Source: Myxococcota bacterium
GTDB lineage: Bacteria > Myxococcota_A > UBA9042 > PHBI01 > JBMYRH01
Direction of reading: 5' to 3'
NCBI GenBank assembly: GCA_049602155.1
Contig: JBMYRH010000014.1
Location: forward strand, 99,860 to 163,859
DNA: 64,000 nucleotides
In this document: in pieces, positions 30,015 to 51,132 of the stretch
Numbering within the stretch: position 1 is the stretch's first letter
How the letters are laid out: every line of letters starts with the position of its first letter
Translations under genes and position numbers: made by a program
The notes under the pieces: model-generated
Told to the model about the DNA's origin: nothing
Seen by the model: the letters and a program-made list of their open reading frames with translations, nothing else
Databases searched by the model: none

Positions 30015-30027
30015 ATCGCCCTCCAAC

Positions 30028-32384: not shown

Positions 32385-32400
32385 TGGCCCGCTTTTTGCT
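32385..32400 (+). promoter_or_regulatory. candidate sigma-54 promoter TGGCCCG-CTTT-TTGCT upstream of the gsp cluster
   Basis: The GG and GC elements have the exact -24/-12 spacing, with one mismatch to TGGCAC. It sits about 125 bp upstream of the gspC start, inside a 318-bp intergenic leader. Confidence 0.35.
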
Positions 32401-32526
32401 TATTTCTCCCGACCGGACCGCAACACGAGCCGAACGACGTATGACACACCTCACCATGACAGCACCGCTAAATCGCCGGCAAAATGCCGAGCAGCGGTCC
32501 GTTTTTTGGGATAAGGCGGTGGTGCG

Positions 32527-33555
32527 ATGAGCGCGCTCTTCAAGAAGCACTTTTGGGCGTTGAACCTGGCGGCTCTGGCGCTTTTGGCGTGGTTGACGTC
32601 CTTGACCGTCAACGAAGTGACGGGGGGCATGCTCTTCGTCGCGCCGACCCCACCGAACGTCTCTGTGGCTGAGTCAGGCCAGGCGGACATGGCCAAGCGT
32701 GGGCGCGTCCCCGGCGACGAGGACGCCCGAGATACTCTGGATGAGCGTCATGTTTTTGACCTCAACCCGATGGAGGACGACATCGCCGCGTCCGGGGGCG
32801 AGGAGACCGAGGAGAAGGAGGAGGAGCCCAAGCCTACGGGGGAAGGAGAGCTTGAGGAGAGCGACCTCCCGATCGACTTGATGGGCACCTTGGTCAGCCC
32901 CGACGCTGAGCAGTCGATGGCCACGCTGAGCATCGACGGCGAGAACAAGCTCGGCTGGGTTGGCTCGGAGTTCATGGAGGGCAAGGCCAAGATCGTCACC
33001 ATCGCGCCGCGCCACATCATCGTCCAAGAGGGCGTGGCCATGACGGTCATCAAGCTCTGGAGTGACAAGGCGAAGGCGGGGCCGAAGGGCCGCGGCAAGG
33101 GCAAGGACTCGGCGCGAGGTCGCGGTAACAACCGCAGCGCACGAGATAAGAAGGCGAACGGGAAGGCCGAGTCGAAGAGTAAGCCGGAGCGGCCGGGGCG
33201 CAAGGACTACTCCAAGGGCGTGAAGAAGACCGGCCCTTACGACTATCAGATCGACCGCGGGATGCTCGATGAGCAGCTCAAGGACTTGTCTGAGCTGGGG
33301 CGTCAGGCGCGCGTGGTCCCGAATTATCGCAACGGTAAGTACGAGGGGTTCAAGCTCGTGGGTGTCCGCCCAGGGAGCTTGTATCGGTCGATTGGTGTCC
33401 GGTCTGGCGACGTGATCAAGTCGATCAACGGAAAGCCGATCGACAGCCCCAACAAGGCATTGGATTTGTTCGAGCAGCTTAAGAACTCCTCGAGCATCAA
33501 CTTAGAGATCGAGCGGCGGGGTCAGCCCAAGCAGCTCAACTACAGCATCAAGTGA
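32527..33555 (+). CDS. gspC: type II secretion system protein C-like (N-terminal TM anchor, C-terminal PDZ)
   Basis: It has an N-terminal TM helix and a C-terminal PDZ (YEGFKLVGVRPGSLYRSIGVRSGDVIKSINGKPI). It lies immediately upstream of the secretin gene. Confidence 0.55.
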   Translation: MSALFKKHFWALNLAALALLAWLTSLTVNEVTGGMLFVAPTPPNVSVAESGQADMAKRGRVPGDEDARDTLDERHVFDLNPMEDDIAASGGEETEEKEEEPKPTGEGELEESDLPIDLMGTLVSPDAEQSMATLSIDGENKLGWVGSEFMEGKAKIVTIAPRHIIVQEGVAMTVIKLWSDKAKAGPKGRGKGKDSARGRGNNRSARDKKANGKAESKSKPERPGRKDYSKGVKKTGPYDYQIDRGMLDEQLKDLSELGRQARVVPNYRNGKYEGFKLVGVRPGSLYRSIGVRSGDVIKSINGKPIDSPNKALDLFEQLKNSSSINLEIERRGQPKQLNYSIK

Positions 33556-33604
33556 TGGCGGGAATGTCTCGTCACCTCATCCACCTGCGCGGGAGCCGCA
33601 TGGC

Positions 33605-36175
33605 ATGAGCAGAATAGCAATCACAGGGGTCGCGTTGTGCATGGTGTCGATGGTCGGTTGGCCATCGCTATCGGTCGCGCAGACACGGCCCGGCACGTTG
33701 CCATCGTCCTCGCGGGGCGACTCGGATGGTCCGGTTCGGACCAAGGCTAAGAAGGCCGGGGTCATCGACCCCTCGAGTGGCAAGAAGAAGCTCGATTTTG
33801 ACCCCAAGGACTTGGCGGGCACCTCTGGCTCTGCAGAGGATAAGCTCACCAAGGACGCTGAGGACGTCATTGAGTGGAAGACGAATTTTGAGAAGGGAAT
33901 CAAGTGCAAGAAGCTCCCGCTGAACACGAAGATTCGCCTGGACTTTAACGACATCGCTCTGGGCGATCTGACCAAGTTCATCTCATGCATCACCGAGCAG
34001 AATTTCATCCTCGCTGGTGGGGCAAATAAGAGCGCGACGGTCTCTATCTTGAGCCCGAAGCCGGTCACCGCGTATGAGGCTTACAAGGCGTACTTGAGCA
34101 CGCTAGAGGCCAACTCGCTGACCATCGTGCCCAACGGTAACTTCCTTGAGATCGTGCCGAGCGGCGAAGCCAAGCAGCAGGGCGCTCCGATCTTCGGCCC
34201 GAAGAAGAAGGGGCCGAATGACGACCGTATGGTCACTCGGCTGATTCAGCTTGAGCACATCCAGGGGCAGGAGATCTTGCCGGTCATCGAGAAGTTCAAG
34301 ACCAAGTCGGCCGACCTGACCATCTACGCACCGACCAACACGCTCATCATGACGGACACTGGGACGAACATCCGTCGTATCTTGGCGCTCATCAAGGAGC
34401 TCGATGTCCCGGTGGGCAAGGAGAAGATCTGGATCCGCCCGATTCAGTATGCCGACGCCTCCGAGATGCTCAGCATGCTTCAGAACCTCTTTCAAGCGAG
34501 CGGTGGGGGCCGCAGTGCCTCCGCCTCCTCACGCCCTTCGAGCTCCAAGTCAAAGCGCAAGGGGGCCAAGGCGAAGTCGAGCCCCTCAAGTGTCGTTGGG
34601 GCGTCCGGTGACGTGACGAGCATCGAGATCACCAAGATGCTCTCCGATGAGCGCACCAACTCCATCATCTTTGTGGCCAGCCGCTCCTCCTACCTCAAAG
34701 TTGATCGGCTCTTGCGCAAGATCGATGTGCCGATCCCCGGCGAGGGGCAGATCCACATCCACAGCCTCGAGAACGCCGACGCAGAGGAGATCGCTCAGAC
34801 GCTCTCGAGCCTCGCCTCATCCAAGGGCGGCAAGGGCAAGCGCAGCTCGAAGAGCAAGAAGAAGAAGAAGAGCAAGTCCAAGAGTGGCAGCTCTGGAGGC
34901 GCGCTGCTTCAAGGCGACGTGAAGATCACCGCCTACGAGCCGACGAACTCCCTCGTGATCGAGTCGTCCCTCAAGGATTACCTCTCCCTCCAGAGGGTCA
35001 TTAAGCAGCTCGATGTGCGCCGCAAGCAGGTCTACGTCGAGGCGATCATCATGGAGATCAGCCAGAACAAGCAGAAGGACGTCGGGTTCAGTGGCTCGGG
35101 TGGCGTCCCGGACGTCGATATCGCGGGTGAGCAGGTCCCCCTCCTCTTTGGCGTGGGTGGCCTCGGCCTCGATGTCCAAGGTGCGCTCTCGACGTTGACC
35201 GCCGGCGGCGGCGCCATCGGCATGCAAGGCCCGATGGTGGACCTCTCTGGCGGCGTCTCGGGCTCGGGTGACTCGGCATCGACTGGGGGCAGCTTCTCGA
35301 TCCCCGCCTTTGGCTTCACGCTCCAGGCGCTCCAGACGACGAGCAACGTCAACGTGCTGTCTACGCCGCACATCCTCACCGTTGAGAACGAAGAGGCCGA
35401 GATTCAGGTCGGAAAGCGTCAGCCCTACCGAAACCAGAGCATGGGTGGCCTGGGTAACCTCTCAAGCCTCGCGGGCTTGGCGGGTGGCGCGGGCGCGAGC
35501 GCCCTCGGCAGCTTGGGGGGCCTCGGCGGCTTAGGTGGCCTCGGCAGCCAGGTTCAGTACGTCGACGTGGACCTGACGTTGAAGATCAAGCCCCAGGTCA
35601 ACGCGAGCGACTTTGTACGGCTTGAGATCGAGCAGAACATTGACGACATCGAGGGCTTCTTCGCGGAAGCGCCGATCACGTCCAAGCGGAAGATCTCCAA
35701 CATCGTCGTGGTGCGTGACGGTCAACCCGTCGTCATCGGTGGCTTGATGCGAGACAGCGAGACCGAGTCCGTGGAGAAGGTGCCCTTCTTGGGTGACATC
35801 CCGCTCTTGGGCCTGCTCTTCCGCAAGACGGCGACGACGGTCGAGAAGCGCAACTTGCTCCTGATCATCATCCCTCATGTCATCAAAGACCCGAGCGACT
35901 TGAAGCAGATCCACAACCAGCGGAAGACCGAATTCCGAGAGTTCAGTCGCATGATGGCGATGCGTAAGAAGGAGTTCGAGGGCGAGATGGACTACCGCAA
36001 GAAGGTGGGCCTGCTTCAGGACATCCATGTGACGGTCAACCGCGCCCGCCGTGAGCGTGAACTCAACGAGCAGTCCATCTTTGAGTCGACCGAGTTTGAC
36101 TCGGTGGGGCCGCCAGAGACGCACGACATTGAGTACGACCCGTATGAGGCGACTGAGGATAAGGGGGACGACTAA
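33605..36175 (+). CDS. gspD: type II secretion system secretin GspD
   Basis: An N0 domain (KIRLDFNDIALGDLTKFISCITEQNFIL) and a secretin core (VLSTPHILTVENEEAEIQVGKRQPY, then VVVRDGQPVVIGGLMRDSETESVEKVPFLGDIPLLGLLF). It also carries unusual Lys/Ser-rich low-complexity inserts. Confidence 0.9.
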   Translation: MSRIAITGVALCMVSMVGWPSLSVAQTRPGTLPSSSRGDSDGPVRTKAKKAGVIDPSSGKKKLDFDPKDLAGTSGSAEDKLTKDAEDVIEWKTNFEKGIKCKKLPLNTKIRLDFNDIALGDLTKFISCITEQNFILAGGANKSATVSILSPKPVTAYEAYKAYLSTLEANSLTIVPNGNFLEIVPSGEAKQQGAPIFGPKKKGPNDDRMVTRLIQLEHIQGQEILPVIEKFKTKSADLTIYAPTNTLIMTDTGTNIRRILALIKELDVPVGKEKIWIRPIQYADASEMLSMLQNLFQASGGGRSASASSRPSSSKSKRKGAKAKSSPSSVVGASGDVTSIEITKMLSDERTNSIIFVASRSSYLKVDRLLRKIDVPIPGEGQIHIHSLENADAEEIAQTLSSLASSKGGKGKRSSKSKKKKKSKSKSGSSGGALLQGDVKITAYEPTNSLVIESSLKDYLSLQRVIKQLDVRRKQVYVEAIIMEISQNKQKDVGFSGSGGVPDVDIAGEQVPLLFGVGGLGLDVQGALSTLTAGGGAIGMQGPMVDLSGGVSGSGDSASTGGSFSIPAFGFTLQALQTTSNVNVLSTPHILTVENEEAEIQVGKRQPYRNQSMGGLGNLSSLAGLAGGAGASALGSLGGLGGLGGLGSQVQYVDVDLTLKIKPQVNASDFVRLEIEQNIDDIEGFFAEAPITSKRKISNIVVVRDGQPVVIGGLMRDSETESVEKVPFLGDIPLLGLLFRKTATTVEKRNLLLIIIPHVIKDPSDLKQIHNQRKTEFREFSRMMAMRKKEFEGEMDYRKKVGLLQDIHVTVNRARRERELNEQSIFESTEFDSVGPPETHDIEYDPYEATEDKGDD

Positions 36176-37903
36176 GTGACCCTCGCCTCCACGCCTATGT
36201 TTGGCCCACGACGACTTGGAGAGATCCTCGTCGACATGGGGGCCGTCTCTCCGGAGTCGGTAGAGAGCGCCCTTGAGCTTCAGGAGGAGAAGGGCGGCCG
36301 ACTCGGTGACCTCTTGGTGGACATGGAGGCGATCACCGCCGATGACGTCGCGAAGGCGTTGGCCGAGCAGCTGGACCTCGAGTACGACGATGAGCTCGAG
36401 GCCGACGAGATCGATCCTCAGCTCGTCAGCCGCATGTCGCTCTCCTACGTGCGCGCCAACGAGATGCTCCCGCTGGTCGCAGACGAGACGACGGTCCGCT
36501 TGGCGGTGGTCGATCCGCTGAACACCTTCGCGATCGATGACATCCGCGTGCTGCTCAACCGGGAGGTCGAGCTCGTCGTGGTCGCACGCGAGACACTGAG
36601 CGCCGCGATGCACCGCGTCTTCGATCGCCGCGCTGGGGCGGATCAGGTCGTCGGCGACCTCCAGGAAGAAGATCTGGGGAGCCTGGCGCATGACCTGGAC
36701 GACCAGGCCAAAGACATCCTCGATGAGGACGATGAGGCGCCGATCATTCGCTTGGTGAACTCGATCTTGAATCAGGCGATCAAAGAGCGCACGAGCGACA
36801 TCCACATCGAGCCCTACGAGCGGGACATCGTCATCCGGTTCCGGAAAGACGGCGTCCTCAAAGAGATCGTGCGCGCACCGAAGCGCTTTCAAGCGTCGAT
36901 TGCCAGCCGAATCAAGATCATGGGCAACCTGAACATCGCTGAGAAGCGGCTCCCCCAGGACGGCCGTATCCGCATCAAGATCGCAGGTCGTGACGTCGAC
37001 TTGCGCCTCTCGACGGTCCCGACGACCTTCGGTGAGCGCATCGTCTTGCGTATCCTCGACAAGTCCTCAGTGGTGCTCGACCTCGAGTCCCTGGGCTTCT
37101 TGCAGCACAACCTCAACACCATCACGGACTTGATCGAGCGTCCCCATGGGATCGTCTTGGTCACAGGGCCTACGGGCTCTGGTAAGACGACGACGCTCTA
37201 CGCGGCGCTGTCGCGGATCAACACGCCGGATCGGAACATCCTCACGGTTGAAGATCCCGTCGAGTACCAGCTCCAGGGCATCGGTCAGATGCAGGTCAAT
37301 CGGAAGATCGACTTCACGTTCGCCCGCGGCCTCCGCGCTATCCTGCGTCAGGATCCCGATGTCGTGCTCATCGGTGAGATTCGTGACCTTGAGACCGCTG
37401 AGAACGCGATCCAGGCCGCCCTGACGGGCCACCTCGTCTTCGCGACGCTCCACACTAACGATGCGCCGAGCGCGTTCACCCGGCTGACCGACATGGGCGT
37501 CGAGCCCTTCCTCTCGGCCTCTTCGGTGATCGCGGTGATGGCGCAGCGCCTCGTGCGCACGGTCTGTAAAGAGTGCCGCGAGCCCTACACGCCGCTTCCG
37601 GCCGAGCTGAAGAAGCTGGGCCTTGAGCCGTCAGACGTGAAGCCTGAGCACACGATCTACCGGGCGGTCGGTTGCCCAGCGTGCTTCGACAGCGGCTACG
37701 CCGGTCGATGGGGCATCCATGAGCTCCTGCAAGTGGATGACGACATTCGCTCACTGGTGATGCAGAACACAGCGTCTTCGATCATCAAGCGTCGCGCGGT
37801 CGAGCTCGGCATGCACACCCTTCGAGACGATGGGGTGGCCAAGGTGCTGAGCGGTCACACGACCATGGATGAGATTATGCGCGTCACTGCTGAAGACCGC
37901 TAG
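36176..37903 (+). CDS. gspE: type II secretion ATPase GspE
   Basis: The GTG start abuts the gspD stop. It has a GspE N-domain, a Walker A (VTGPTGSGKTTTLYAAL), Asp and His boxes, and a tetracysteine motif (CKEC...CPAC). Confidence 0.92.
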   Translation: MTLASTPMFGPRRLGEILVDMGAVSPESVESALELQEEKGGRLGDLLVDMEAITADDVAKALAEQLDLEYDDELEADEIDPQLVSRMSLSYVRANEMLPLVADETTVRLAVVDPLNTFAIDDIRVLLNREVELVVVARETLSAAMHRVFDRRAGADQVVGDLQEEDLGSLAHDLDDQAKDILDEDDEAPIIRLVNSILNQAIKERTSDIHIEPYERDIVIRFRKDGVLKEIVRAPKRFQASIASRIKIMGNLNIAEKRLPQDGRIRIKIAGRDVDLRLSTVPTTFGERIVLRILDKSSVVLDLESLGFLQHNLNTITDLIERPHGIVLVTGPTGSGKTTTLYAALSRINTPDRNILTVEDPVEYQLQGIGQMQVNRKIDFTFARGLRAILRQDPDVVLIGEIRDLETAENAIQAALTGHLVFATLHTNDAPSAFTRLTDMGVEPFLSASSVIAVMAQRLVRTVCKECREPYTPLPAELKKLGLEPSDVKPEHTIYRAVGCPACFDSGYAGRWGIHELLQVDDDIRSLVMQNTASSIIKRRAVELGMHTLRDDGVAKVLSGHTTMDEIMRVTAEDR

Positions 37904-37914
37904 GGGAGCCCAAG

Positions 37915-39177
37915 GTGCCGATCTACGAGTACAAGGGGCTCAACGCGAAGGGCAAGCAGGCCAATGGTGTCTTGGACGCCGACAGCCCGCGTGACCTGAA
38001 GGACCGACTGAAGCGTCAGGGCATCTACATGTCCGAGTACGTGGAGACGGACCGGGGCGGAAAGCGCCGCAAGGTTGGCGGTGAGCAGACTGGCTCGAAA
38101 GAGGTCAGCTTCAGCGACATGATGCGCCGCATCACGCTGCTGGAGGTCGCGGAGTTGACGCGTCAGCTCGCGACGCTGAGCCGCGCAGGGATCCCTCTCG
38201 TGGAGTCCTTAGCGGCCTTGACCGATGAGCACGACAACCCGAAATTGAAGCGGGTCATGAGCCAGGTGAAGCGCGCGGTCAGTGAGGGCTCGTCCCTCGC
38301 CAACGCCTTGCAGGCTCACCCGACGGTCTTCCCGCCGATCTACGTCAACATGGTCAACGCGGGTGAGTCCTCCGGTAACCTCGACATCGTCTTCGATCGC
38401 CTCGCGACGCTGACAGAGTCCCAGGTGCGCCTCCGAGGCAAGCTGATGGGGGCGCTGATGTACCCCATCATCATGGTGTTTTTGGGCGGGGTGATCATCA
38501 CGTTGATGATGCTCTTTGTCGTCCCGAAGATGGCCGAGATGTTCGAAGAGATGGGGGCGCAGTTGCCGACTGTGACCCGCATCCTGATCACCTTCAGTGA
38601 GTTCATCAGTGATTGGTGGTTGTTGCTCTTCCTAGCGTTCGGGGGCGGTGTCACCGCCTTTAACCGCTGGCGGGTCAGTGAGAATGGTAAGCCGACTTGG
38701 GATGCCTTCACGCTGCGTGTCCCGATCTTCGGCCCGCTGATCCGCATGCTGAACGTGGCCCGATTTGCGCGCACGCTCTCCACACTGCTGGCGAGTGGCG
38801 TGCCGATCTTGACGGCCATGAGCATCGTCGAGTCGATCTTGAACAACCACGTGTTGGCCTCGGTGATCGAGCAGGCCCGTGAGGCGGTGAAAGAGGGCAG
38901 CGCGGTCGCGGACACCTTGAGGCAGTCCGGAGAGTTTCCGTCGATGGTGTGCCACATGGTGGCCATCGGAGAGCGCTCTGGTGAGCTGGAGTCGATGCTC
39001 GGGAACGTCGCCGACAGCTATGAAGCGCATGTGGACTCGAAGGTGCAGGCGCTCACGAGCGTCCTGGAGCCCGTGATGATCGTGGTCATGGGCGGGGCCG
39101 TGGCGTTCCTCGTCTTCGCCATCTTGCAGCCCATGATGAATATGAATGAGCTCTTCGCCAGTGGCGGGCTCGGTTAG
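37915..39177 (+). CDS. gspF: type II secretion inner-membrane platform protein GspF
   Basis: MPIYEYKGLNAKGKQANGVLDADSPRDLKDRLKRQGI, followed by a duplicated GspF domain with 3 TM helices. Confidence 0.9.
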   Translation: MPIYEYKGLNAKGKQANGVLDADSPRDLKDRLKRQGIYMSEYVETDRGGKRRKVGGEQTGSKEVSFSDMMRRITLLEVAELTRQLATLSRAGIPLVESLAALTDEHDNPKLKRVMSQVKRAVSEGSSLANALQAHPTVFPPIYVNMVNAGESSGNLDIVFDRLATLTESQVRLRGKLMGALMYPIIMVFLGGVIITLMMLFVVPKMAEMFEEMGAQLPTVTRILITFSEFISDWWLLLFLAFGGGVTAFNRWRVSENGKPTWDAFTLRVPIFGPLIRMLNVARFARTLSTLLASGVPILTAMSIVESILNNHVLASVIEQAREAVKEGSAVADTLRQSGEFPSMVCHMVAIGERSGELESMLGNVADSYEAHVDSKVQALTSVLEPVMIVVMGGAVAFLVFAILQPMMNMNELFASGGLG

Positions 39178-39206
39178 TTTTTTTTGGACCCTGAGGAGGG
39201 AGCCCA

Positions 39207-39593: not shown

Positions 39594-39595
39594 GC

Positions 39596-41864: not shown

Positions 41865-43207
41865 TGGCACCTTTCACCCCCAGAGCTGCGCGACCGATGC
41901 CCTTGAAGGAGGCGGCGCGGGTCACTGCGTCCGCGGCGCGGGCTACGGTGCGCTCGGACGTGCCCGGCACCCAGCGCGGGGTGGCGCTTTTGGTGGTCTT
42001 GGTGACCATGGCGATCATGGGGGCGCTCTCGACGGAGTTTGCCTACAACACGCGGGCCAACATCTGGATGGCGGGTAACGTCACGGCGAGCACGCAGGCT
42101 TATTACCATGCGCGCAGTGTCTCGAAGATCGCGACGCTCGCGGTGAACGCGAAGCGGATCTTCCCGCAGCTCAAGACGGTCCTCTCGATGATGGGCAAGA
42201 GTCAGAGCACGCGGCTTGAGATCTGGCGTCAGGCCTGCGAGTTCGCGAAGATCTTCGCCACAGGGAAGGCCGAATTCTTCGGGCTGCAGGTCCTCGATCT
42301 CTCCGGTGAAGACGCCATCGGCTTCAAGAAGGGGAGCTTTGAGTGCACGGTCACTGCGGAGGATAGTCGAACCAACCTGAACGCCGCGGCGACCGATCCG
42401 CCCAGCAACTTGGGGCAGCTCGGGAGCAAGAAGCCGAGGTCCTCTGGTCCGGTCTCAGGCAACAAGCTTCAGACCTCTAGAAAGCAGCTGGGGCTCAAGC
42501 TCTATGGACTCCTTCGGCCGATGTTGGAGACGGGGCAGTTCGACAGCGAGGAGGAGATCTTCGACGTCATCATCAACGTCATGGACTGGACCGACAGCGA
42601 CGAGTTGAGGACCGACGTCGACGCCGCCGGGAACTTCATCGACGGGGCCGGAGACGAGGGGCGTGACTACTCGGGCGTTGAGTACGAGGTGAAGAACGCC
42701 AAGATGGACACCATCGGCGAGGTTCAGCTGGTCGCGGGCATGGAGCCTGAAGTCTACTGTCAGATACGCGACAAGCTGACGGTCTTCTCGACCGGCAAGC
42801 TCAACGTGAATGACGCTGACCTTGGCACCCTTAAGGGCGTGATCTGCCAGGGCATCACCGACCCCACCCTCGAGTATCAGCTCTGCTGGAACTACCTCCC
42901 GGGCCAGATCCCCGTCGTCGACCAGGCGCTCCTCTCCCTCGACACCTGTCGTCAGCTGAAGAAGGCCGCCTACTCCACGCCCTTCACGTCGATGGGTAAA
43001 TTCATCTCATTCATGAGGGCCTTCCCTCGCATCATGCAGGTGCCGCAGACCTTGCCCATCGATAACCGCACGCTTAATCAGCACCTGGGCGTCCTCTCGA
43101 CGATGGTCCGGGTCGAGGCGCTCGGCGAGTACAAGGGCACCAAACGCAAGATCACGACCATCTTCGACTTGGCGACCGGCGAGCCGGTTTACCACAACGT
43201 GAATTAG
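41864..43207 (+). CDS. gspK: minor pseudopilin GspK-like
   Basis: QRGVALLVVLVTMAIMGALSTEF, lacking E5 as is typical of GspK. It has a large periplasmic domain. Confidence 0.65.
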   Translation: MAPFTPRAARPMPLKEAARVTASAARATVRSDVPGTQRGVALLVVLVTMAIMGALSTEFAYNTRANIWMAGNVTASTQAYYHARSVSKIATLAVNAKRIFPQLKTVLSMMGKSQSTRLEIWRQACEFAKIFATGKAEFFGLQVLDLSGEDAIGFKKGSFECTVTAEDSRTNLNAAATDPPSNLGQLGSKKPRSSGPVSGNKLQTSRKQLGLKLYGLLRPMLETGQFDSEEEIFDVIINVMDWTDSDELRTDVDAAGNFIDGAGDEGRDYSGVEYEVKNAKMDTIGEVQLVAGMEPEVYCQIRDKLTVFSTGKLNVNDADLGTLKGVICQGITDPTLEYQLCWNYLPGQIPVVDQALLSLDTCRQLKKAAYSTPFTSMGKFISFMRAFPRIMQVPQTLPIDNRTLNQHLGVLSTMVRVEALGEYKGTKRKITTIFDLATGEPVYHNVN

Positions 43208-43216
43208 GAGGAACCC

Positions 43217-45196
43217 ATGGCACAAACCGTCATCGGCCTCGATATAGGCACTTGGTCCATTAAGGCCGCCGTCTTGGAGTCCACGCTCCGCGGCTTCTCG
43301 CTCGTCGAGGTGGCCGAGCATCACCTGCCCCGTGGCGTAGACGGCAACCTGCTCAACGAGGATAGGACCTCGTCGCTGCAAGCCCTCCTGCGTGATGTGC
43401 GGCCCCCAGAGGTAGTCGCCACCGCCATCGCGGGTCGCCACGCGATGACGCGCGAGCTCTCGTTGCCCTTCTCGGACGACAAGAAGATCGCCACCGTGCT
43501 GGGCTTTGAGCTCGAGGAGCTGCTGCCCCTCGACATCGATGAGCTCGTCTACGATTACGAGCCACTTGAGCAAGGCCCGGATGGCGCAAACCTCTTGTGT
43601 GCCGCCGTGGACAAGGGGTGGTTCTCTGACTTCCTCGCCGAGCTTCAAGCCGCTGATATCGACCCCAAGGTCGTCACCTTAGATGCCATGGCTTACGCCC
43701 ACCTCCTCGCGAGCCTCGGGGACGAGGACGAGGTTCCGGGCTGCGTCGCCTTGGTCGACGTGGGTCATGAGACCACGAGCGTCACCGTCATTCAGGACGG
43801 CAAGGTGCGCACGGCGCGCACCATCGCGCGCGGCGGTCACCACGTCACTCAAGCGCTCATGAACGGCCTTGAGGTCGACTACGCCAAGGCCGAGAGCATC
43901 AAGCACAGCCGCGTGAGGATCGATGGTCACCTCCCGCCAGAGGTCTCCGAGGCCGAGCACACTCAGACCCTTGAGCTCGTCAGTGGGCCCATCAACGCGT
44001 GCATCCGCGACATTCGACTGACCCTGCATGCGCACGCCAACCGTTGGCGGAATCGGGTCGAGCGCGTCATCGTCTTTGGAGGCGCGAGTCGACTCCCAGG
44101 GTTCGATATAGAGCTCGGCCAAGCCCTCGGGGTGAAGGTCGAGTCACCCCGGCTCTCCAACCAGGGCTGGACCAAGATGGTCCTCCCCCGAGAGCAAGAG
44201 CGTAGCATGCCGATGGCGGCCGCCCTTGGGCTGGGCTTTGTCCGCGGGATGCGCGACGGCATCAACTTTCGGAAGGGGGAGTTCGCCTCCGAGTCAGACT
44301 TTAAGGCGCTGCGTGAGCGTGCTGGGTGGCTCCTGACGATCGCGGCGCTCTTGCTCTGCACCTTCTTTGCGCGGCAGGTCGTCAGCCTGCGGATGTTGGA
44401 GGTCAACCATGGGGTGCTCGTCAGCCAACTGGAGGACTTCAGTAAAGACGTCTTGGGCGAGAAGAAGGATGACTTCGACTTCGTACTGCAGCGCCTTAAC
44501 CGTCCGCCTGCTCAAGAGGCGGACTCGATCTTCCCCGAGCTGACGGCGTTCCGAACGTTCTACGACATCACCGAGTCTCAGGCCCTGATTAACGAGATGC
44601 AGGTCCCTCAGGAGGGGATGGCTCCTGGCCCGCCGACGGCGAGGCCGCCGGGGTTAAAGCCCCCTGGAGATGGGGCGTCTCCGGATGAGGTCTTGAAGTG
44701 GCACCGTAAGCAGGCGACGAAGTTGCACAACGATGTGCGCTCTCGGCCGTTTGAGTCGCCGGCCATTAAGCGCACGGAGGGGATGAAGTTGCTCCCGGGC
44801 ACCTCACCGGCGCCGACGCTTGTCACGCCTAAACGACCGGCCACGGAGGTGACACCGCCCGCGCCTAAGGTGGTCATCACCCCCAGTGAGGAAGAGGTTG
44901 AGGAGGGGGAGAGGACGGAGAGCTCGGACGACGGGCGCTATCGTGTGGAGCTGAAGCACGTGCAGATCGACTTGAAGAGCGCCTTTGTGAAGGGTGAAGC
45001 GAACAATATTGAGGCGGTGGAGGCCTTCACTGGCGAGCTCAAGAAGCACCGATGTTTTGAGACGGTCGAGACGAGCGACACGACGCGATTAAGCTTCGGT
45101 GATCGTCAGGATTGGCTGCGCTTTCAGCTCAAGGTCGTGATCGATTGCGCGGCCAAGTCGGGTGATGAGTCGAAGGCGAACAAGGAGGACAACTGA
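43217..45196 (+). CDS. gspL: GspL-like assembly protein (cytoplasmic actin-like domain, TM helix, periplasmic domain)
   Basis: MAQTVIGLDIGTWSIKAAVLE, a PilM/GspL actin-like fold. A TM helix (WLLTIAALLLCTFFA) sits near residue 375. A Pro-rich linker and a periplasmic C-terminus follow. Confidence 0.6.
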   Translation: MAQTVIGLDIGTWSIKAAVLESTLRGFSLVEVAEHHLPRGVDGNLLNEDRTSSLQALLRDVRPPEVVATAIAGRHAMTRELSLPFSDDKKIATVLGFELEELLPLDIDELVYDYEPLEQGPDGANLLCAAVDKGWFSDFLAELQAADIDPKVVTLDAMAYAHLLASLGDEDEVPGCVALVDVGHETTSVTVIQDGKVRTARTIARGGHHVTQALMNGLEVDYAKAESIKHSRVRIDGHLPPEVSEAEHTQTLELVSGPINACIRDIRLTLHAHANRWRNRVERVIVFGGASRLPGFDIELGQALGVKVESPRLSNQGWTKMVLPREQERSMPMAAALGLGFVRGMRDGINFRKGEFASESDFKALRERAGWLLTIAALLLCTFFARQVVSLRMLEVNHGVLVSQLEDFSKDVLGEKKDDFDFVLQRLNRPPAQEADSIFPELTAFRTFYDITESQALINEMQVPQEGMAPGPPTARPPGLKPPGDGASPDEVLKWHRKQATKLHNDVRSRPFESPAIKRTEGMKLLPGTSPAPTLVTPKRPATEVTPPAPKVVITPSEEEVEEGERTESSDDGRYRVELKHVQIDLKSAFVKGEANNIEAVEAFTGELKKHRCFETVETSDTTRLSFGDRQDWLRFQLKVVIDCAAKSGDESKANKEDN

Positions 45197-45891
45197 TGTC
45201 TCTAGCAGCAAGTTTAGGGCGCATGTCGCGTCGAGAGCGGATGTTGGTGGGGCTCCTGATGAGCCTCCTCGTCGGCGCCGTGGTCTTTGTCTTCTATTTC
45301 ATCGTCGGGACGGAGGTCTCGAGCCTTGAGGAGCGGATCGATGAGGACCGAGAGACGCTCACCGAGATCTACGGGAAGTCCCATGAGTTCTTGAAGGCGA
45401 CCGCGGCGACAGAGGCGATGCGCGAGGTCGCGGCGCGCAACAAGGACACGAACTTGAAGCTGGCGGTGAACGAGCTGGCTAAGCGGATCAGCTTCCAGTC
45501 GCGTAACCGCAAGGGTGAGATCGAGGGGACGAAGAAACTGGCCGATGTGATGCAGTTCGACCAGACCCAGGAGACCTACCTCTCGAAGAAGAAGAAGAAG
45601 AAGCGAAAGGCGAAGGGCAAGAAGAAGAAGGACTCAGACACAGGCTATTACCGTCGCGATCAACCGATCACGCTCTCTGATGGGGTCCCCTTTAAGGCCA
45701 TCTATGAGCTGATGGAGAAGATCGAGGAGACGGAAGAGCTGCTCTTCGTCACCGAGATGGACCTAACACGAGATTTTCAGGATGGACGCATCGCGCGGAA
45801 GAACGCGCAGATCGTCGTGTCGACCTATTATTATAAGGGCGTGGAGAAGGCTGAGAAGGCCTCAGAGACCGACGCCAAGAAGGACGGCTGA
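45196..45891 (+). CDS. gspM: GspM-like bitopic protein
   Basis: A short cytoplasmic N-terminus, one TM helix (LVGLLMSLLVGAVVFVFYFIV) and a periplasmic domain. It contains a Lys-rich tract (KKKKKKRKAKGKKKK). Confidence 0.5.
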   Translation: MSLAASLGRMSRRERMLVGLLMSLLVGAVVFVFYFIVGTEVSSLEERIDEDRETLTEIYGKSHEFLKATAATEAMREVAARNKDTNLKLAVNELAKRISFQSRNRKGEIEGTKKLADVMQFDQTQETYLSKKKKKKRKAKGKKKKDSDTGYYRRDQPITLSDGVPFKAIYELMEKIEETEELLFVTEMDLTRDFQDGRIARKNAQIVVSTYYYKGVEKAEKASETDAKKDG

Positions 45892-47456
45892 TGGGCATCC
45901 TCAAGACCCTATTGAAGGGGCTCGGCTATAGCGTGGCCTTCACGCTCCTGACCCTGTTCTTCACCCTGGTGACCTTCCCCGAGGACAGGCTCCGGGAGTA
46001 CGTTGAGGTGGTGGCCGGTCAAGCGACCGGTGGTCGTGTCAACATCACGGAGCTCTCACTCTCGGGCTTAGGGGGCGTAGAGCTCACTGACGCCGTCTTG
46101 AAGATGCCGCCACCGGAGACACCCGAGGGCGCGAGTGATCGCCCTGGCGGCATGTTTCAAGTTCAGAGCATGGAGGTCAGCGCCTCGCTCTTTTCGCTCT
46201 TGGATGATGTCGTGGACGCGACCTTCGAGGGGACCGTCCAAGGGGGACAAATCTCAGGCGGGCATGTGGTCACGGCCGCGGAGCGCTTTGAGCTAGAGAT
46301 CGCGGAGATCGCGGAGCTGCGCTTTGGTACGGCGGGGCTCATCATCAAGTCGATGATCGGCGCAGACTTGCGCGGGACGCTCGGAGGCAAGGACCTCAAG
46401 GTGAGCTACGGGACGGACCTTTCGACCTTGCAGGCAGAGCTCGACCTCGACCTCACGGACTCCAGGCTTGTCGATCCGACCATCCCGACCAAGCAGCTCG
46501 GCCCACTGAGCTTGAGCACGATGTCCTTGGGGCAAGTTCAGTTGACCATCAAGGCCGGCAAGTCCAGCACCATGGGGATCAAGAAGAAGAAACGCGGACC
46601 AGGTCGGAAGCAGGATGACACCGTCATCCACCTCGCGAACGTGGGCGCCTCAGGGGGGGATGTCGAGTTCCAATTCGATGATCAGAGCATCATCAGGATT
46701 CCATCAGGTGTGCCGATGAAGCAGTGGGGGGTCGATATCCACGCAGCCGTGCGCGTCAAAGACGCCTACATCGATCACACGATTGAGAAGAAGGGCGAGC
46801 TTGAGCAACCGAACAAGCTCTTGCGGATGTACTTCAAGCAGGACCCGCGCATGCGCGCCGCGATGCGGGATGGGGTCTTTGGCCTCACCTGTAAGGGGAC
46901 CTTTGCGCGGCCAAATTGCCGCCCGACGCCCACGACCATCCGCGGCTTCAAGAAGCGCCAACCACGGTTCACAAGCGACGAGGGTGACGCCCCAGAGGAG
47001 AGCGAAGAGGCGGACAAGAACGTCAGCGAGAGCAAAGGTAAAAAGGCCCCCCAAGGGGAGCCAAAAGACAAGAAGGCCAAGGCGGTCAAGGCCAAGGAGA
47101 ACCTGAAATCACGAAACTCCGCGCGCACCGCAGCCTCGAAGCGCCCGACCTCGACGACAGCGCGCGCCAAGCGCCCGACAACCAGTCGGGTCTCAAGCGC
47201 CAAGCTGGCTCGTGATCGAGGACCGAATAGTCGTCCGAACCCTGTCCCGATCGGCGCCGCGGCGCGCGCTGTCCCGACGATAGCTCCACCGGTGCGCGGA
47301 CGAGATGAAGCGTACGCAAGTGACGACGACGACGACGACGAAGAAGAAGAAGAAGAAGACGACGACGACGACGACGACGACGACGAAGAAGAAGAAGAGG
47401 AAGAAGAAGACGATGACGACGAAGAAGACGAGGAGGATGAAGGGGACGAAGAGTGA
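45891..47456 (+). CDS. gspN: GspN-like protein with a Lys-rich segment and a 44-residue poly-Asp/Glu C-terminal tail
   Basis: An N-terminal TM helix (LGYSVAFTLLTLFFTLVTF), then a beta-rich periplasmic domain at the GspN position. The tail reads DDDDDDEEEEEEDDDDDDDDDEEEEEEEEDDDDEEDEEDEGDEE. Confidence 0.45.
   Translation: MGILKTLLKGLGYSVAFTLLTLFFTLVTFPEDRLREYVEVVAGQATGGRVNITELSLSGLGGVELTDAVLKMPPPETPEGASDRPGGMFQVQSMEVSASLFSLLDDVVDATFEGTVQGGQISGGHVVTAAERFELEIAEIAELRFGTAGLIIKSMIGADLRGTLGGKDLKVSYGTDLSTLQAELDLDLTDSRLVDPTIPTKQLGPLSLSTMSLGQVQLTIKAGKSSTMGIKKKKRGPGRKQDDTVIHLANVGASGGDVEFQFDDQSIIRIPSGVPMKQWGVDIHAAVRVKDAYIDHTIEKKGELEQPNKLLRMYFKQDPRMRAAMRDGVFGLTCKGTFARPNCRPTPTTIRGFKKRQPRFTSDEGDAPEESEEADKNVSESKGKKAPQGEPKDKKAKAVKAKENLKSRNSARTAASKRPTSTTARAKRPTTSRVSSAKLARDRGPNSRPNPVPIGAAARAVPTIAPPVRGRDEAYASDDDDDDEEEEEEDDDDDDDDDEEEEEEEEDDDDEEDEEDEGDEE
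47323..47453. repeat. GAC/GAA trinucleotide microsatellite encoding the poly-acidic tail
   Basis: About 130 bp of (gac)n and (gaa)n runs are visible directly in the sequence. Confidence 0.8.
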
Positions 47457-48937
47457 TCGTCGTCACATCACCGCTCACGGGTCAGGTGTTGGGAGAGGTC
47501 CCGTGTCTTGAGCCCGGAGCCGTTCGGTCCGCGGTGGCTCGTGCGCGGGTCGCCTTTGGTCCCTGGTCCGAGCAGGGTGTGCGTCGCCGGGTGGCGATCT
47601 TAGAGCGCGTGCTGGGGGCGCTGATTTCAGCCCGTGAAGACCTCATCGATCGCCTGATTCAGGAGACAGGTAAGGTTCGTGGCGATGCGTTGACCGAGCT
47701 GTTGATCTTCTTCGACACGGCGCGCTACTACCTGAGCCACGCTGAGGACCTCCTCAAAGACGAGGTCGTCACGCCTCATTTGCTTAAACATAAGCGTGGG
47801 GTGGTGAGCTACACCCCCCGTGGTGTCGTCGGCATCATCAGCCCGTGGAATTTCCCCGTCGACCTGGGCCTCGGTGAGGTGTTCCCGGCACTGCTGGCTG
47901 GCAACGCAGTCGTCTTAAAGCCGAGTGAGCTCACGCCGCTGATCAACCTGGAGTTAGCGCGCCTCGCCGAGGAAGCGGGCCTCCCCGGGGGCGTCTTCCA
48001 GGTCTTGACCGGGGCGGGTGAGACGGGCGCTGCGATGGTGGAAGAGGTCGATCAAGTGACGTTCACCGGGTCGGTGAACGTGGGTCGAAAGGTGGCCGCT
48101 CAAGCGGCGCAAAGGCTGATCCCGTGCACGTTAGAGCTCGGGGGTAAAGACCCCATGGTCGTCTTGCGCGACGCAGACCTCGACCGCGCGTCCTCTGCGG
48201 CGGTCTGGGGGGCGTTCTTTAACAGTGGTCAGATGTGCATGTCGGTCGAGCGGGTCTATGTCGAGGCGGCGGTGTGTGAAGACTTCACACGTCGGGTCGT
48301 CGCCAAGACCCGTGCCCTCCGCCAAGGTGTCGACGGACGCTACACACATGATGTCGGCGCCATGACTCGGCCCCAGCAGCTCGACGTGGTGGAGGCACAT
48401 CTTCAAGACGCAGTCGATGCCGGGGCCCGTGTGCTCTGTGGTGGTGGACGGCCCCCGGGGCTCCCCGACTCGTTCTTTGAGCCGACCGTGGTTGCCGACG
48501 TCGATCACACGATGACGCTGATGACCGAAGAGACCTTTGGTCCGGTGCTGCCCATCATGGCGGTGTCGGACGCAGGAGAGGCCGTTCGCCTCGCGAATGA
48601 CAGCGTATACGGGTTGAACGCGAGCGTGTGGTCACGCGACCTCACGACCGCCCGCTCTGTCGCCCGATCGCTTCAGAGCGGGAATGTGTGCGTGAACGAT
48701 GTGGTCACCTCTTACGGGCTGGTCGAGCTCCCCTTTGGTGGAGAGAAGGACAGCGGCGTGGGGCGGCGTCATGGACCGGGCGGGCTTCGGAAGTATGCCG
48801 TCACGCAGGCCATCGCAGAGGATCGCTTGCGCCTCGCACGTGAGCCGAACTGGTACCCGTATTCTCCCCGGTTGTTGGGGGCATTAGAGCGCGCTGCGGG
48901 GCTCCTTGGTGGTATCAAGTCGATCCTCCGTCGGTGA
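47453..48937 (+). CDS. NAD(P)-dependent aldehyde dehydrogenase family protein
   Basis: The GTG start overlaps the gspN stop (GTGA). It has the ELGGKDP, GQMCMSVERVYV and EETFGPV motifs. Confidence 0.85.
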   Translation: MIVVTSPLTGQVLGEVPCLEPGAVRSAVARARVAFGPWSEQGVRRRVAILERVLGALISAREDLIDRLIQETGKVRGDALTELLIFFDTARYYLSHAEDLLKDEVVTPHLLKHKRGVVSYTPRGVVGIISPWNFPVDLGLGEVFPALLAGNAVVLKPSELTPLINLELARLAEEAGLPGGVFQVLTGAGETGAAMVEEVDQVTFTGSVNVGRKVAAQAAQRLIPCTLELGGKDPMVVLRDADLDRASSAAVWGAFFNSGQMCMSVERVYVEAAVCEDFTRRVVAKTRALRQGVDGRYTHDVGAMTRPQQLDVVEAHLQDAVDAGARVLCGGGRPPGLPDSFFEPTVVADVDHTMTLMTEETFGPVLPIMAVSDAGEAVRLANDSVYGLNASVWSRDLTTARSVARSLQSGNVCVNDVVTSYGLVELPFGGEKDSGVGRRHGPGGLRKYAVTQAIAEDRLRLAREPNWYPYSPRLLGALERAAGLLGGIKSILRR

Positions 48938-51130: not shown

Positions 51131-51132
51131 TC

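What the first reader, a model, noticed from the sequence alone, without database searches (positions are those of the whole stretch)
32527..48937. Complete 12-gene T2SS with atypical low-complexity decorations and a translationally coupled aldehyde dehydrogenase
The gspCDEFGHIJKLMN genes are contiguous and mostly translationally coupled, with 4-nt overlaps. GspD carries Lys/Ser-rich inserts (SKSKRKGAKAKSS; KGKRSSKSKKKKKSKSKSGSSGG). GspM has a KKKKKKRKAKGKKKK tract. GspN ends in 44 consecutive Asp/Glu residues encoded by a GAC/GAA microsatellite. An ALDH gene starts with a GTG that overlaps the gspN stop. In Myxococcus the T2SS is required for surface display of MYXO-CTERM proteins, and two MYXO-CTERM genes lie in this same window. 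This supports a functional link between the cargo and the machine.
Basis: partly seen in the sequence, partly recalled or inferred. Interest (0 to 1): 0.55.

Follow-up and report, generated by a model that had tools for sequence, protein, structure and literature searches.

The report
Myxobacterial secretion operon with charged tails
This is a complete type II protein-secretion operon from an uncultured myxobacterium; its odd features (an acid tail on GspN, lysine-rich loops on GspD and GspM, and an aldehyde dehydrogenase gene joined to the operon's end) recur in distant relatives, so they are inherited traits and not slippage noise, though their function is still only inferred.

Summary
Window 32527-47456 (+) carries gspCDEFGHIJKLMN of the Myxococcota type. 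A GabD2-like aldehyde dehydrogenase (ALDH) gene starts with a GTG that overlaps the gspN stop (GTGA). A YcbB-like L,D-transpeptidase gene follows 42 nt later.

Small corrections:
- The GspN tail is 43 Asp/Glu plus one Gly in 44 residues; the longest pure run is 40.
- Only three junctions overlap by 4 nt, and three more overlap by 1 nt.
- Only one of the two MYXO-CTERM genes passes the curated model.

All 15 lineages examined (GspN N-domain identity 24-82%) keep an acidic GspN tail, with net charge -10 to -47 over the last 50 residues. GspM keeps a polybasic patch at the same site. Both GspD inserts lie in loops that are low-complexity and mostly net-basic in 120 homologues. ALDH follows gspN in 8 of 15 lineages, with the identical GTGA junction in 7, and its tree matches the GspN tree.

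My best reading is that these are conserved periplasmic disordered segments with complementary charge around an AsmA-like GspN. That is inferred, not shown. A role for ALDH in secretion is unproven. The MYXO-CTERM neighbours add little. I rate it a new variant of a known system, of moderate interest.

The parts
32385..32485 (+). Candidate promoter region upstream of gspC. It holds a sigma-54-like element TGGCCCGCTTTTTGCT (32385-32400, one mismatch) and a weak sigma-70-like site (32456-32485).
   Evidence: These are consensus matches only. The window has 4 sigma-54-type matches at up to one mismatch, against 1.6 expected, which is not significant.
32527..33555 (+). gspC (342 aa). It has an N-terminal membrane helix, an HR region, a 56-residue basic Lys/Arg/Gly linker (residues 181-236, nt 33067-33234, 21 K/R against 5 D/E) and a C-terminal PDZ domain.
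   Evidence: NF041515 GspC_delta, 258 bits against a cut-off of 150; Pfam PDZ_6 and T2SSC; linker composition.
33605..36175 (+). gspD secretin (856 aa), with Lys/Ser-rich inserts at residues 314-326 (nt 34544-34582) and 410-432 (nt 34832-34900).
   Evidence: TIGR02517, 473 bits; Pfam N0, Secretin_N and Secretin. The inserts fall in loops that are low-complexity and mostly net-basic in 120 homologues.
36176..37903 (+). gspE ATPase (575 aa). Residues 13-65 carry an MshEN-type cyclic-di-GMP-binding motif.
   Evidence: TIGR02533, 707 bits; NF053729, 62.7 bits against a cut-off of 38.
37915..39177 (+). gspF inner-membrane platform protein (420 aa).
   Evidence: TIGR02120, 467 bits against a cut-off of 424.
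39207..43207 (+). Pseudopilin genes: gspG (39207-39593), gspH (39596-40357), gspI (40354-41037), gspJ (41034-41864) and gspK (41864-43207).
   Evidence: N_methyl motifs in G-J. T2SSG and T2SSJ Pfam hits, and GspH/I/J/K NCBIfam hits below the cut-offs. The gene order matches that of relatives.
43217..45196 (+). gspL (659 aa). It has a PilM/actin-like cytoplasmic domain, a membrane helix and a Pro-rich periplasmic linker.
   Evidence: Pfam PilM_2, 93 bits; TIGR01709 GspL, 51.6 bits against a cut-off of 65.
45196..45891 (+). gspM (231 aa), with the polybasic patch KKKKKKRKAKGKKKK at residues 131-145 (nt 45586-45630).
   Evidence: Weak T2SSM and GspM hits. The patch is conserved at the same alignment position in relatives.
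45891..46970 (+). gspN ordered part (residues 1-360). It consists of a membrane helix (2-27) and a beta-rich periplasmic domain. The domain has a conserved Cys334/Cys343 pair and a basic loop, GIKKKKRGPGRK.
   Evidence: TIGR04411, 72.8 bits against a cut-off of 50. The AlphaFold2 model has pLDDT above 90 over most of residues 1-360.
46971..47303 (+). gspN disordered basic linker (residues 361-471), rich in Ser, Thr, Pro, Ala, Lys and Arg, with net charge +13.
   Evidence: pLDDT 42-56; composition; a comparable linker is present in all homologues.
47304..47456 (+). gspN polyacidic tail (residues 472-521). The last 44 residues are 43 D/E plus one Gly, encoded by a (GAC/GAA)n array at 47322-47452. 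The stop is TGA at 47454-47456.
   Evidence: An acidic tail is present in all 15 lineages.
47453..48937 (+). Aldehyde dehydrogenase (494 aa), GabD2-like and cytoplasmic. Its GTG start overlaps the gspN stop (GTGA). The catalytic Glu228 (ELGGK) and Cys262 (GQMC) are intact.
   Evidence: Pfam Aldedh, 470 bits; NF006916, 538.7 bits against a cut-off of 521; motifs; conserved junction.
48980..51130 (+). YcbB/LdtD-like L,D-transpeptidase (716 aa) with Scaffold, PG_binding_1 and YkuD domains, 42 nt after ALDH. It is probably the last gene of the transcription unit.
   Evidence: Pfam. No terminator-like site lies between 47456 and 48980 on the + strand. It is a conserved neighbour of gspN in 8 lineages.

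Best explanation
This is the chromosomal Myxococcota-type type II secretion operon gspCDEFGHIJKLMN of an uncultured Myxococcota bacterium. Its lineage has extended the operon with two downstream genes: a cytoplasmic GabD2-like aldehyde dehydrogenase, translationally coupled to gspN through a GTGA stop/start overlap, and a YcbB-like L,D-transpeptidase.

The 'decorations' are conserved, intrinsically disordered periplasmic segments whose composition, not sequence, is maintained. GspC (linker), GspD (two N-domain loops), GspM (one patch) and GspN (one loop) carry polybasic tracts. GspN ends in a roughly 160-residue disordered extension made of a basic linker followed by a polyacidic block of about 50 residues.

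Shown:
- The gene identities.
- Conservation of the tracts and of the GTGA junction.
- Predicted disorder of the GspN extension.
- Vertical co-inheritance of ALDH with gspN.

Inferred, with my estimate of probability:
- GspN's ordered domain is an AsmA-like lipid-shielding groove that handles lipid-anchored (MYXO-CTERM) cargo, as GspN does for lipoproteins in Acinetobacter. About 0.5.
- The polyacidic end docks electrostatically on the polybasic loops of GspM, GspD and GspC. This would tether GspN to the assembly platform and the secretin. About 0.3.
- The transpeptidase remodels peptidoglycan around the machine. About 0.3.
- ALDH is co-expressed but has no direct role in secretion. About 0.6.
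For: Identity of the cluster:
- Family hits.
- The exact GspN sequence is already deposited at NCBI as 'type II secretion system protein GspN [Myxococcota bacterium]'.

Conservation of the GspN tail:
- Nine homologues at 24-100% identity all end in 36-61 residues of at least 85% D/E, preceded by a linker of about 100-150 residues that is net basic in most of them.
- Across 15 lineages the last 50 residues carry net -10 to -47.
- In an exhaustive search of 1.84 billion representatives with the ordered domain alone, the 81 long forms (450 aa or more) have a median net charge of -12 in the last 40 residues, and 69% are at or below -8. The 43 short forms have a median of +3.
- The D/E order differs even between the 72%-identical pair, so composition is what is kept.

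Basic tracts:
- The GspM patch has 8-13 K/R in 20 residues at the same site in 11 lineages.
- Both GspD inserts lie in loops of about 20-58 residues with a median of 4-5 K/R against 1 D/E in 120 homologues.

Charge covariation, not corrected for phylogeny:
- GspM patch against GspN tail: rho = -0.78, n = 11, p = 0.0045.
- GspD loops against GspN tail: rho = -0.82, n = 7, p = 0.023.

Topology and fold of GspN:
- The AlphaFold2 model has a membrane helix at 2-27, a beta-rich domain with pLDDT above 90, and residues 361-521 at pLDDT 42-56.
- An invariant Cys pair fits a periplasmic location.
- Weak DUF748 and YhdP (AsmA-like) hits occur in 7 of 66 homologues.

Literature:
- GspN is an AsmA-like beta-taco protein required for T2SS surface display of lipoproteins (PMC12802150).
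- MYXO-CTERM proteins are predicted to be lipidated and need the T2SS (PMC11980579).

ALDH:
- It directly follows gspN in 8 of 15 lineages. The junction is ...GAG TGA T... with a GTG start in 7 of those 8.
- The ALDHs are 62-71% identical to the window's.
- The ALDH and GspN neighbour-joining trees are congruent.

Transpeptidase:
- Ldt follows gspN or ALDH in 8 lineages.
Against: - No physical interaction has been tested.
- The covariation rests on 7-11 related lineages with no phylogenetic correction. It may reflect a genome-wide tendency towards charged low-complexity runs, or GC content (0.54-0.71 across the loci).
- Four of the GspD-GspN pairings were made only by matching contig lengths.
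- Foldseek found no significant PDB match for the GspN model. TamAB appears only at rank 37 with probability 0.08. A profile search of PDB sequences found nothing.
- Pfam T2SSN does not hit GspN.
- ALDH was lost at least three times while the T2SS was kept. Synteny extends beyond the operon to CNNM, an AAA ATPase and YceG, so adjacency alone does not prove function.
- Conservation of the GspC linker could not be checked, because the fetched loci do not reach gspC.
Confidence: 0.55

Rival explanations
1. The charged tracts are functionally neutral. On this view they are slippage-prone trinucleotide arrays, tolerated because they sit in disordered loops and tails, and their presence in relatives reflects mutational bias rather than selection.
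For: - The tail is encoded by a period-3 array: 36.7 copies at 90% match. AAG and GAA arrays underlie the GspD and GspM tracts.
- Length and D/E order vary freely between relatives.
- In higher-GC relatives the tail is diluted by Gly, Pro and Ala.
Against: - An acidic tail is kept in all 15 lineages, down to 24% identity, and in most long-form representatives. Short forms are not acidic.
- The reading frame is never lost. The other frames of the array would encode Thr/Arg or Lys/Arg.
- The basic patch in GspM and the basic loops in GspD stay at fixed alignment positions.
- The charge strengths covary between proteins.
Confidence: 0.2
2. The polyacidic GspN tail does not dock on T2SS partners. 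Instead it binds divalent cations (Ca2+ or Mg2+), acts as an entropic spacer, or interacts with the envelope, as the charged Glu-Pro/Lys-Pro spacer of TonB does. The basic tracts would independently bind anionic peptidoglycan or lipid head groups.
For: - Several relatives come from Tara Oceans marine assemblies (record names), where divalent cations are abundant.
- A basic block followed by an acidic block resembles periplasm-spanning charged spacers (my own knowledge of TonB).
- A peptidoglycan-binding L,D-transpeptidase is a conserved neighbour.
Against: - Charge covariation between the GspN tail and the GspM and GspD tracts is not predicted by independent roles.
- Nothing here tests cation binding.
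Confidence: 0.2
3. The aldehyde dehydrogenase is a working accessory of the secretion pathway, for example acting on a lipid or envelope aldehyde linked to cargo lipidation or peptidoglycan remodelling. That would explain why translational coupling to gspN is preserved.
For: - The same GTGA junction occurs in 7 lineages, down to 29% GspN N-domain identity.
- The ALDH and GspN trees are congruent.
- ALDH is more conserved (62-71%) than GspN (29-82%).
- A conserved amphipathic C-terminal extension (AEDRLGL..EPNWYPYS..GLFGG) could bring it to the membrane.
- Codon choice shifts from GAA to GAG in the last tail codons, creating a Shine-Dalgarno-like GAGGAGGA before the GTG.
Against: - There is no signal peptide, and it is an ordinary GabD2-type enzyme.
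- It is absent after gspN in 7 of 15 lineages that retain the T2SS.
- Flanking backbone synteny is also conserved.
- No known T2SS step needs an aldehyde dehydrogenase.
Confidence: 0.15

Closest known systems
Myxococcus xanthus T2SS (Gsp), which delivers MYXO-CTERM proteins to the cell surface (Sah et al. 2020, as cited in PMC11980579 and 10.1101/2023.06.07.544157)
   Same: - The gene set runs from C to N.
- GspC matches the delta-type equivalog NF041515.
- The source is a Myxococcota bacterium.
- A MYXO-CTERM protein is encoded in the same window.
   Different: - This is an uncultured lineage with no cultured relative among the hits.
- I could not retrieve the M. xanthus proteins. It is therefore untested whether they carry the polyacidic GspN tail, the GspM lysine patch, or the ALDH and Ldt genes.
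GspN/PulN of Acinetobacter baumannii and Klebsiella pneumoniae: an AsmA-like beta-taco protein required for T2SS export of lipoproteins (PMC12802150)
   Same: - It is the last gene of the gsp cluster.
- It has a single N-terminal membrane helix followed by a beta-rich periplasmic domain.
- Some homologues give weak AsmA-clan hits.
- The expected cargo is lipid-anchored.
   Different: - It belongs to the divergent TIGR04411 (Leptospira-type) family, not Pfam T2SSN.
- It is about twice as long, with a 160-residue disordered extension of a basic block then an acidic block. That paper does not describe any such extension.
TonB periplasmic spacer with (Glu-Pro)n-(Lys-Pro)m repeats (my own knowledge; an analogy only)
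   Same: It is an inner-membrane-anchored protein with a low-complexity periplasmic segment made of consecutive blocks of opposite charge.
   Different: - There is no sequence relationship.
- The order of the blocks is reversed: here the basic block comes before the acidic one.
- The acidic block here is almost pure Asp/Glu, not a Pro-containing rod.
GspA/GspB (ExeAB, OutB): peptidoglycan-binding accessories of proteobacterial T2SS (for example PMC9239104)
   Same: A peptidoglycan-directed protein is encoded with the T2SS and plausibly helps the machine cross or anchor to the cell wall.
   Different: Here the protein is a YcbB/LdtD-type L,D-transpeptidase with Scaffold, PG_binding_1 and YkuD domains. 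It is an enzyme, not a scaffold, and no homology to GspA or GspB was seen.
GabD2-type succinic semialdehyde dehydrogenase (NCBIfam NF006916)
   Same: The full-length match is above the curated cut-off, 538.7 bits against 521. The catalytic Glu and Cys are intact.
   Different: The substrate is untested. The genomic setting, translationally coupled to the last T2SS gene, has not been described for this family as far as my searches show.

Membership tests
Type II secretion system (Gsp) gene cluster | Secretin GspD, ATPase GspE, platform protein GspF and major pseudopilin GspG | tested here: met
   TIGR02517 473 bits, TIGR02533 707 bits and TIGR02120 467 bits are all above their cut-offs. GspG has Pfam T2SSG and N_methyl, while TIGR01710 (65 bits) is below its cut-off of 89.
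Type II secretion system (Gsp) gene cluster | Minor pseudopilins GspH, I, J and K with prepilin cleavage/methylation motifs | tested here: met
   N_methyl/TIGR02532 is above the cut-off in H, I and J. The specific GspH, I, J and K models are below their cut-offs, for example GspK at 65.7 against 130. Assignment therefore rests on these hits plus gene order.
Type II secretion system (Gsp) gene cluster | Assembly-platform proteins GspC, GspL and GspM | tested here: met
   GspC_delta scores 258 against 150. GspL (51.6 against 65) and GspM (19.9 against 60) are sub-threshold but lie in the canonical positions and are syntenic in all relatives.
Type II secretion system (Gsp) gene cluster | Prepilin peptidase GspO/PilD | not tested
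   It is not in the cluster. Only part of the window's ORFs were scanned, and it is often encoded elsewhere in the genome.
GspN, Leptospira/delta type (TIGR04411) | A match to the curated model above its cut-off, and a position after gspM | tested here: met
   72.8 bits against a cut-off of 50, covering residues 8-222 only. The gene starts at the gspM stop. NCBI names the identical protein GspN.
Classical GspN (Pfam PF01203, T2SSN) | A match to the Pfam T2SSN model | tested here: not met
   GspN has no Pfam family at E up to 0.01. None of 66 homologues hit T2SSN at E up to 0.1.
AsmA-like (beta-taco) lipid-groove proteins | A concave beta-taco fold with a hydrophobic groove after an N-terminal membrane helix | tested here: inconclusive
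   The model has the membrane helix and long antiparallel strands at pLDDT above 90. Foldseek against the PDB gave no significant hit; TamAB was at rank 37. Weak DUF748 and YhdP hits occur in 7 of 66 homologues. No AlphaFold DB library was available.
Aldehyde dehydrogenase superfamily / GabD2-like (NF006916) | A full-length Aldedh domain, catalytic Glu (ELGGK) and Cys (GQxC), and a Rossmann GxGxxG motif | tested here: met
   Pfam 470 bits; NF006916 538.7 against 521; Glu228, Cys262 and G187AGETG are present. Substrate specificity cannot be tested here.
MYXO-CTERM sorting signal (TIGR03901) | A C-terminal Cys-containing motif, a hydrophobic helix and an Arg-rich end that match the curated model | tested here: met
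   The protein at 15901-18279 (-) scores 24.9 against 20 on TIGR03901 and 20.3 against 15.85 on TIGR03382. The protein at 15197-15805 (+) has the three-part layout by eye only, with no model hit at E up to 1.
YcbB/LdtD-type L,D-transpeptidase | Scaffold, PG_binding_1 and YkuD catalytic domains | tested here: met
   All three Pfam domains are above their cut-offs. The NF007891 equivalog is below its cut-off, 164 against 425, so the architecture fits but orthology is not established.

The most novel reading that the evidence does not exclude
In this Myxococcota lineage the T2SS may have evolved a co-varying electrostatic docking system made of disordered segments. The roughly -45-charge polyacidic end of a periplasm-spanning GspN extension would bind the polylysine loops of GspM, GspC and the GspD N-domains. 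This would physically couple an AsmA-like lipid-shielding GspN to the secretin, so that lipid-anchored MYXO-CTERM cargo can be handed across the periplasm. The co-translated aldehyde dehydrogenase and the L,D-transpeptidase would be true accessory enzymes of this envelope machine.
Probability: 0.15. Interest if true: 0.7.

Novelty: new variant of a known kind. Interest (0 to 1): 0.4.

Why it matters
The role of GspN in type II secretion was obscure until 2025, when it was tied to export of lipid-anchored proteins (PMC12802150). Myxococcota export dozens of presumably lipidated MYXO-CTERM proteins through their T2SS.

This clade shows three things:
- GspN always carries a long disordered extension, basic then polyacidic.
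- The neighbouring machine parts carry matching polybasic loops.
- The charge strengths rise and fall together.

Together these give a concrete, cheaply testable hypothesis for how GspN is connected to the rest of the machine. They also offer a natural example of charge-patterned disordered regions in the bacterial periplasm.

The conserved GTGA coupling of an aldehyde dehydrogenase to the last secretion gene is an unexplained regularity, and is useful as an operon marker for this clade. The T2SS itself is ordinary and was already annotated in the deposited genome.

Tried and rejected
1. The first homologue search, with full-length GspN, returned only 9 relatives plus a eukaryotic nucleosome-assembly protein, because the D/E tail dominated the word index. 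Repeating it with the ordered domain alone added one hit. The exhaustive representative search was what showed the breadth of the family.
2. The search for related loci with an 8-sequence alignment failed for lack of a conserved stretch. With 5 sequences it found only 3 loci in GTDB genomes. It found none, then one already known, in metagenome contigs. The window's own genome is not among the species representatives.
3. Foldseek of the GspN model against the PDB and a profile search of PDB sequences gave nothing significant. The AsmA-like assignment therefore rests on the literature analogy, secondary structure and weak Pfam hints.
4. Cluster-member look-ups to name taxa gave only 'Myxococcales bacterium' or 'Deltaproteobacteria bacterium' MAG labels. 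I could not tell whether M. xanthus GspN has the tail.
5. I considered whether ALDH starts further downstream. I rejected this because the conserved N-terminal SPLTG motif begins at residue 6.
6. I considered a terminator or promoter between gspN and ALDH. The 4-nt overlap leaves no room, and the scan shows no + strand terminator-like site there.
7. I looked for a myxosortase or prepilin peptidase among the 27 window ORFs scanned outside the gsp-ALDH-Ldt run and found none. Not every ORF was scanned.
8. Literature searches for an acidic GspN tail, or for an ALDH linked to a T2SS, found nothing.

Full report
**1. What is in the sequence**

Window 32527-47456 (+) holds twelve contiguous ORFs. 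Curated models identify five of them above their cut-offs:
- GspC: NF041515 'GspC_delta', 258 bits against 150.
- GspD: TIGR02517, 473 against 351.
- GspE: TIGR02533, 707 against 630.
- GspF: TIGR02120, 467 against 424.
- GspN: TIGR04411, 72.8 against 50.

GspG has the T2SSG and N-methylation domains. GspH, I and J have prepilin motifs with sub-threshold specific hits. GspK, L and M have only sub-threshold hits, but they sit in the canonical order, and that order is identical in every relative fetched. The exact GspN protein is already in NCBI as 'MAG: type II secretion system protein GspN [Myxococcota bacterium]' on a 172-kb contig. The cluster as such is therefore known and annotated.

**2.

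- The GspD inserts (residues 314-326 and 410-432) and the GspM tract (131-145) are exactly as quoted.
- The GspN tail is 43 Asp/Glu plus one Gly in the last 44 residues. The longest uninterrupted run is 40.
- The tail is encoded by a period-3 array of 36.7 copies.
- Junctions: 4-nt overlaps at H/I, I/J and N/ALDH; 1-nt overlaps at J/K, L/M and M/N; gaps of 0-49 nt elsewhere.
- The ALDH GTG at 47453 overlaps the gspN TGA. It is the only usable start, because the conserved SPLTG motif begins at residue 6.
- ALDH is a full-length, catalytically intact enzyme without a signal peptide. It matches the GabD2-type model NF006916 above its cut-off.
- A YcbB-like L,D-transpeptidase gene follows 42 nt later, with no terminator-like site in between. 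The next gene is convergent.
- Of the two MYXO-CTERM genes, only 15901-18279 (-) passes TIGR03901 and TIGR03382. The gene at 15197-15805 (+) has the layout by eye only.

**3. Are the charged tracts noise?**

No. Nine GspN homologues spanning 24-100% identity all carry a linker of about 100-150 residues rich in Lys, Arg, Ser, Thr, Pro and Ala, net basic in most, followed by 36-61 residues that are at least 85% Asp/Glu.

I then searched 1.84 billion representative proteins with only the ordered domain (residues 1-360) and found 176 relatives.
- Among the 81 long forms (450 aa or more), the last 40 residues have a median net charge of -12, and 69% are at or below -8.
- The 43 short forms (300-449 aa) have a median of +3.

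In 15 lineages for which I obtained DNA, the last 50 residues carry -10 to -47. The order of D and E differs even between the 72%-identical pair. The tract therefore turns over by slippage, but its composition, reading frame and terminal position are retained.

GspM keeps a patch of 8-13 Lys/Arg in 20 residues at the same alignment position in 11 lineages.

Both GspD inserts lie in loops that, in 120 homologues of 47-96% identity, are always low-complexity. They are 20-58 residues long, with a median of 4-5 K/R against 1 D/E. The window's lineage is the lysine-rich extreme of a conserved feature.

All of these segments are on the periplasmic side. The GspN model has a membrane helix at residues 2-27, an ordered beta-rich domain (pLDDT above 90 for most of 1-360) and a disordered 361-521 (pLDDT 42-56). 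An invariant Cys334/Cys343 pair fits a periplasmic domain.

**4. Charge complementarity**

Across lineages, the strength of the GspN acid tail tracks the strength of the basic tracts:
- GspM patch against tail: Spearman rho -0.78 (n = 11, p = 0.0045).
- Summed net charge of the two GspD loops against tail: rho -0.82 (n = 7, p = 0.023).

These figures are not corrected for shared ancestry. GC content (0.54-0.71) is a possible confounder. I treat this as suggestive only.

Within the 64-kb window, three of the five most extreme charged tracts lie in gsp genes.

**5. The ALDH and what follows it**

ALDH directly follows gspN in 8 of 15 lineages.
- In 7 of those 8 the junction is the same ...GAG TGA T... 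with a GTG start. The eighth has a 9-nt gap and an ATG.
- These lineages reach down to 29% GspN N-domain identity, while their ALDHs stay 62-71% identical to the window's.
- Neighbour-joining trees of ALDH and GspN agree. This points to one insertion followed by vertical inheritance and at least three losses.

The L,D-transpeptidase is the older and more widespread neighbour. It is present in 8 lineages, including basal ones without ALDH, and is usually followed by a CNNM/CBS/CorC gene, as in the window.

Because this backbone synteny extends beyond the operon, adjacency alone does not prove a role for ALDH in secretion.

One small regularity: in the window, Glu codons are GAA in the body of the tail (16 of 17) but GAG in 3 of the last 5. 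This produces GAGGAGGA and AAGGGGA just upstream of the ALDH GTG. Similar purine-rich motifs precede the GTG in six of the seven coupled loci.

**6. Mechanism**

Published work shows that GspN of Acinetobacter and Klebsiella is an AsmA-like beta-taco protein needed for T2SS transport of lipoproteins but not of soluble cargo (PMC12802150). Other work shows that MYXO-CTERM proteins are predicted to be lipidated on their invariant Cys, cleaved by myxosortase and then moved to the surface by the T2SS (PMC11980579; 10.1101/2023.06.07.544157).

I therefore infer the following:
- The ordered domain of this GspN shields the lipid anchor of such cargo.
- The roughly 160-residue disordered extension reaches across the periplasm.
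- Its polyanionic end binds the polycationic loops of GspM, GspC and the GspD N-domains.

The AsmA-like fold is only weakly supported here. Seven of 66 homologues give weak DUF748 or YhdP hits, and there is no significant Foldseek or PDB-sequence match. Docking is inferred from conservation, location and covariation. Nothing here shows it directly.

Rival readings are neutral slippage, cation binding or spacer function, and a direct enzymatic role for ALDH. They are weighed in their own sections.

**7. Comparison and verdict**

This is a member of the Myxococcota-type T2SS family. GspN fits the divergent TIGR04411 family and fails the classical Pfam T2SSN model.

My literature searches found no description of three features:
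- The conserved basic-then-polyacidic disordered extension on GspN.
- The matching basic tracts on its partners.
- The GTGA-coupled ALDH.

I rate it a new variant of a known kind. The T2SS itself is ordinary, while the charge-patterned periplasmic disorder is a modestly surprising and testable lead.

Noticed in passing
window 15148-15163 (+), 32385-32400 (+), 28653-30095 (-): There is an exact sigma-54 promoter consensus (TGGCACGGCTGTTGCT) 34 nt upstream of the MYXO-CTERM-like gene at 15197. A one-mismatch copy lies 127 nt upstream of gspC. An NtrC-type sigma-54 activator gene lies 2.4 kb upstream of gspC. Counts in the window are not above chance (4 found against 1.6 expected; 10 of 100 shuffles reach 4). 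The placement is suggestive only.
   Followed up: partly
window 36212-36370 (+), GspE residues 13-65: The T2SS ATPase GspE carries an MshEN-type cyclic-di-GMP-binding motif (NF053729, 62.7 bits against a cut-off of 38). This hints that secretion may be under c-di-GMP control. MshEN is also reported for GspE in the related loci.
   Followed up: no
window 48980-53093 (+); loci L017, L021, L022, L023: A YcbB-like L,D-transpeptidase followed by a CNNM/CBS/CorC gene is the most widely conserved neighbourhood downstream of gspN. It is present even in basal lineages that lack the ALDH.
   Followed up: partly
window 47400-47456 (+): Glu codons switch from GAA (16 of 17 in the tail body) to GAG (3 of the last 5). 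This creates Shine-Dalgarno-like GAGGAGGA and AAGGGGA motifs just before the ALDH GTG. All seven coupled loci end gspN with GAG TGA, whereas loci without ALDH use TAG, TAA or TGA.
   Followed up: partly
window 54016-54087 (+), in ORF 53182-54099: A 305-aa protein with no family match ends in another polybasic tract ([24 protein letters not shown]). An unannotated gene of similar size follows CNNM in L017, L021 and L023.
   Followed up: no
window 20614-20721, in ORF 20362-21219 (-): A 15/30-nt tandem repeat (7.2 copies) encodes (DDAQG/DDAQD)n in a small, probably secreted protein with a Cys-rich C-terminal domain. Other small Cys-rich secreted proteins lie at 15197-15805 (+), 30146-31198 (+, DUF7107) and 51133-51648 (-).
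   Followed up: no
window 1842-14937: There is a run of very large, probably secreted proteins. They are 1187 aa with no family; 1087 aa with ASH/HYDIN/VesB-like Ig domains; 1344 aa with an InhA-like MAM domain; and a 499-aa Kelch propeller. They lie just upstream of the MYXO-CTERM genes and are possible T2SS cargo. No C-terminal sorting signal was seen on them.
   Followed up: no
loci L017-L020, L022 (between gspF and gspG): Several relatives have an extra small ORF (52-120 aa, no family) between gspF and gspG. The window has only a 29-nt gap there.
   Followed up: no
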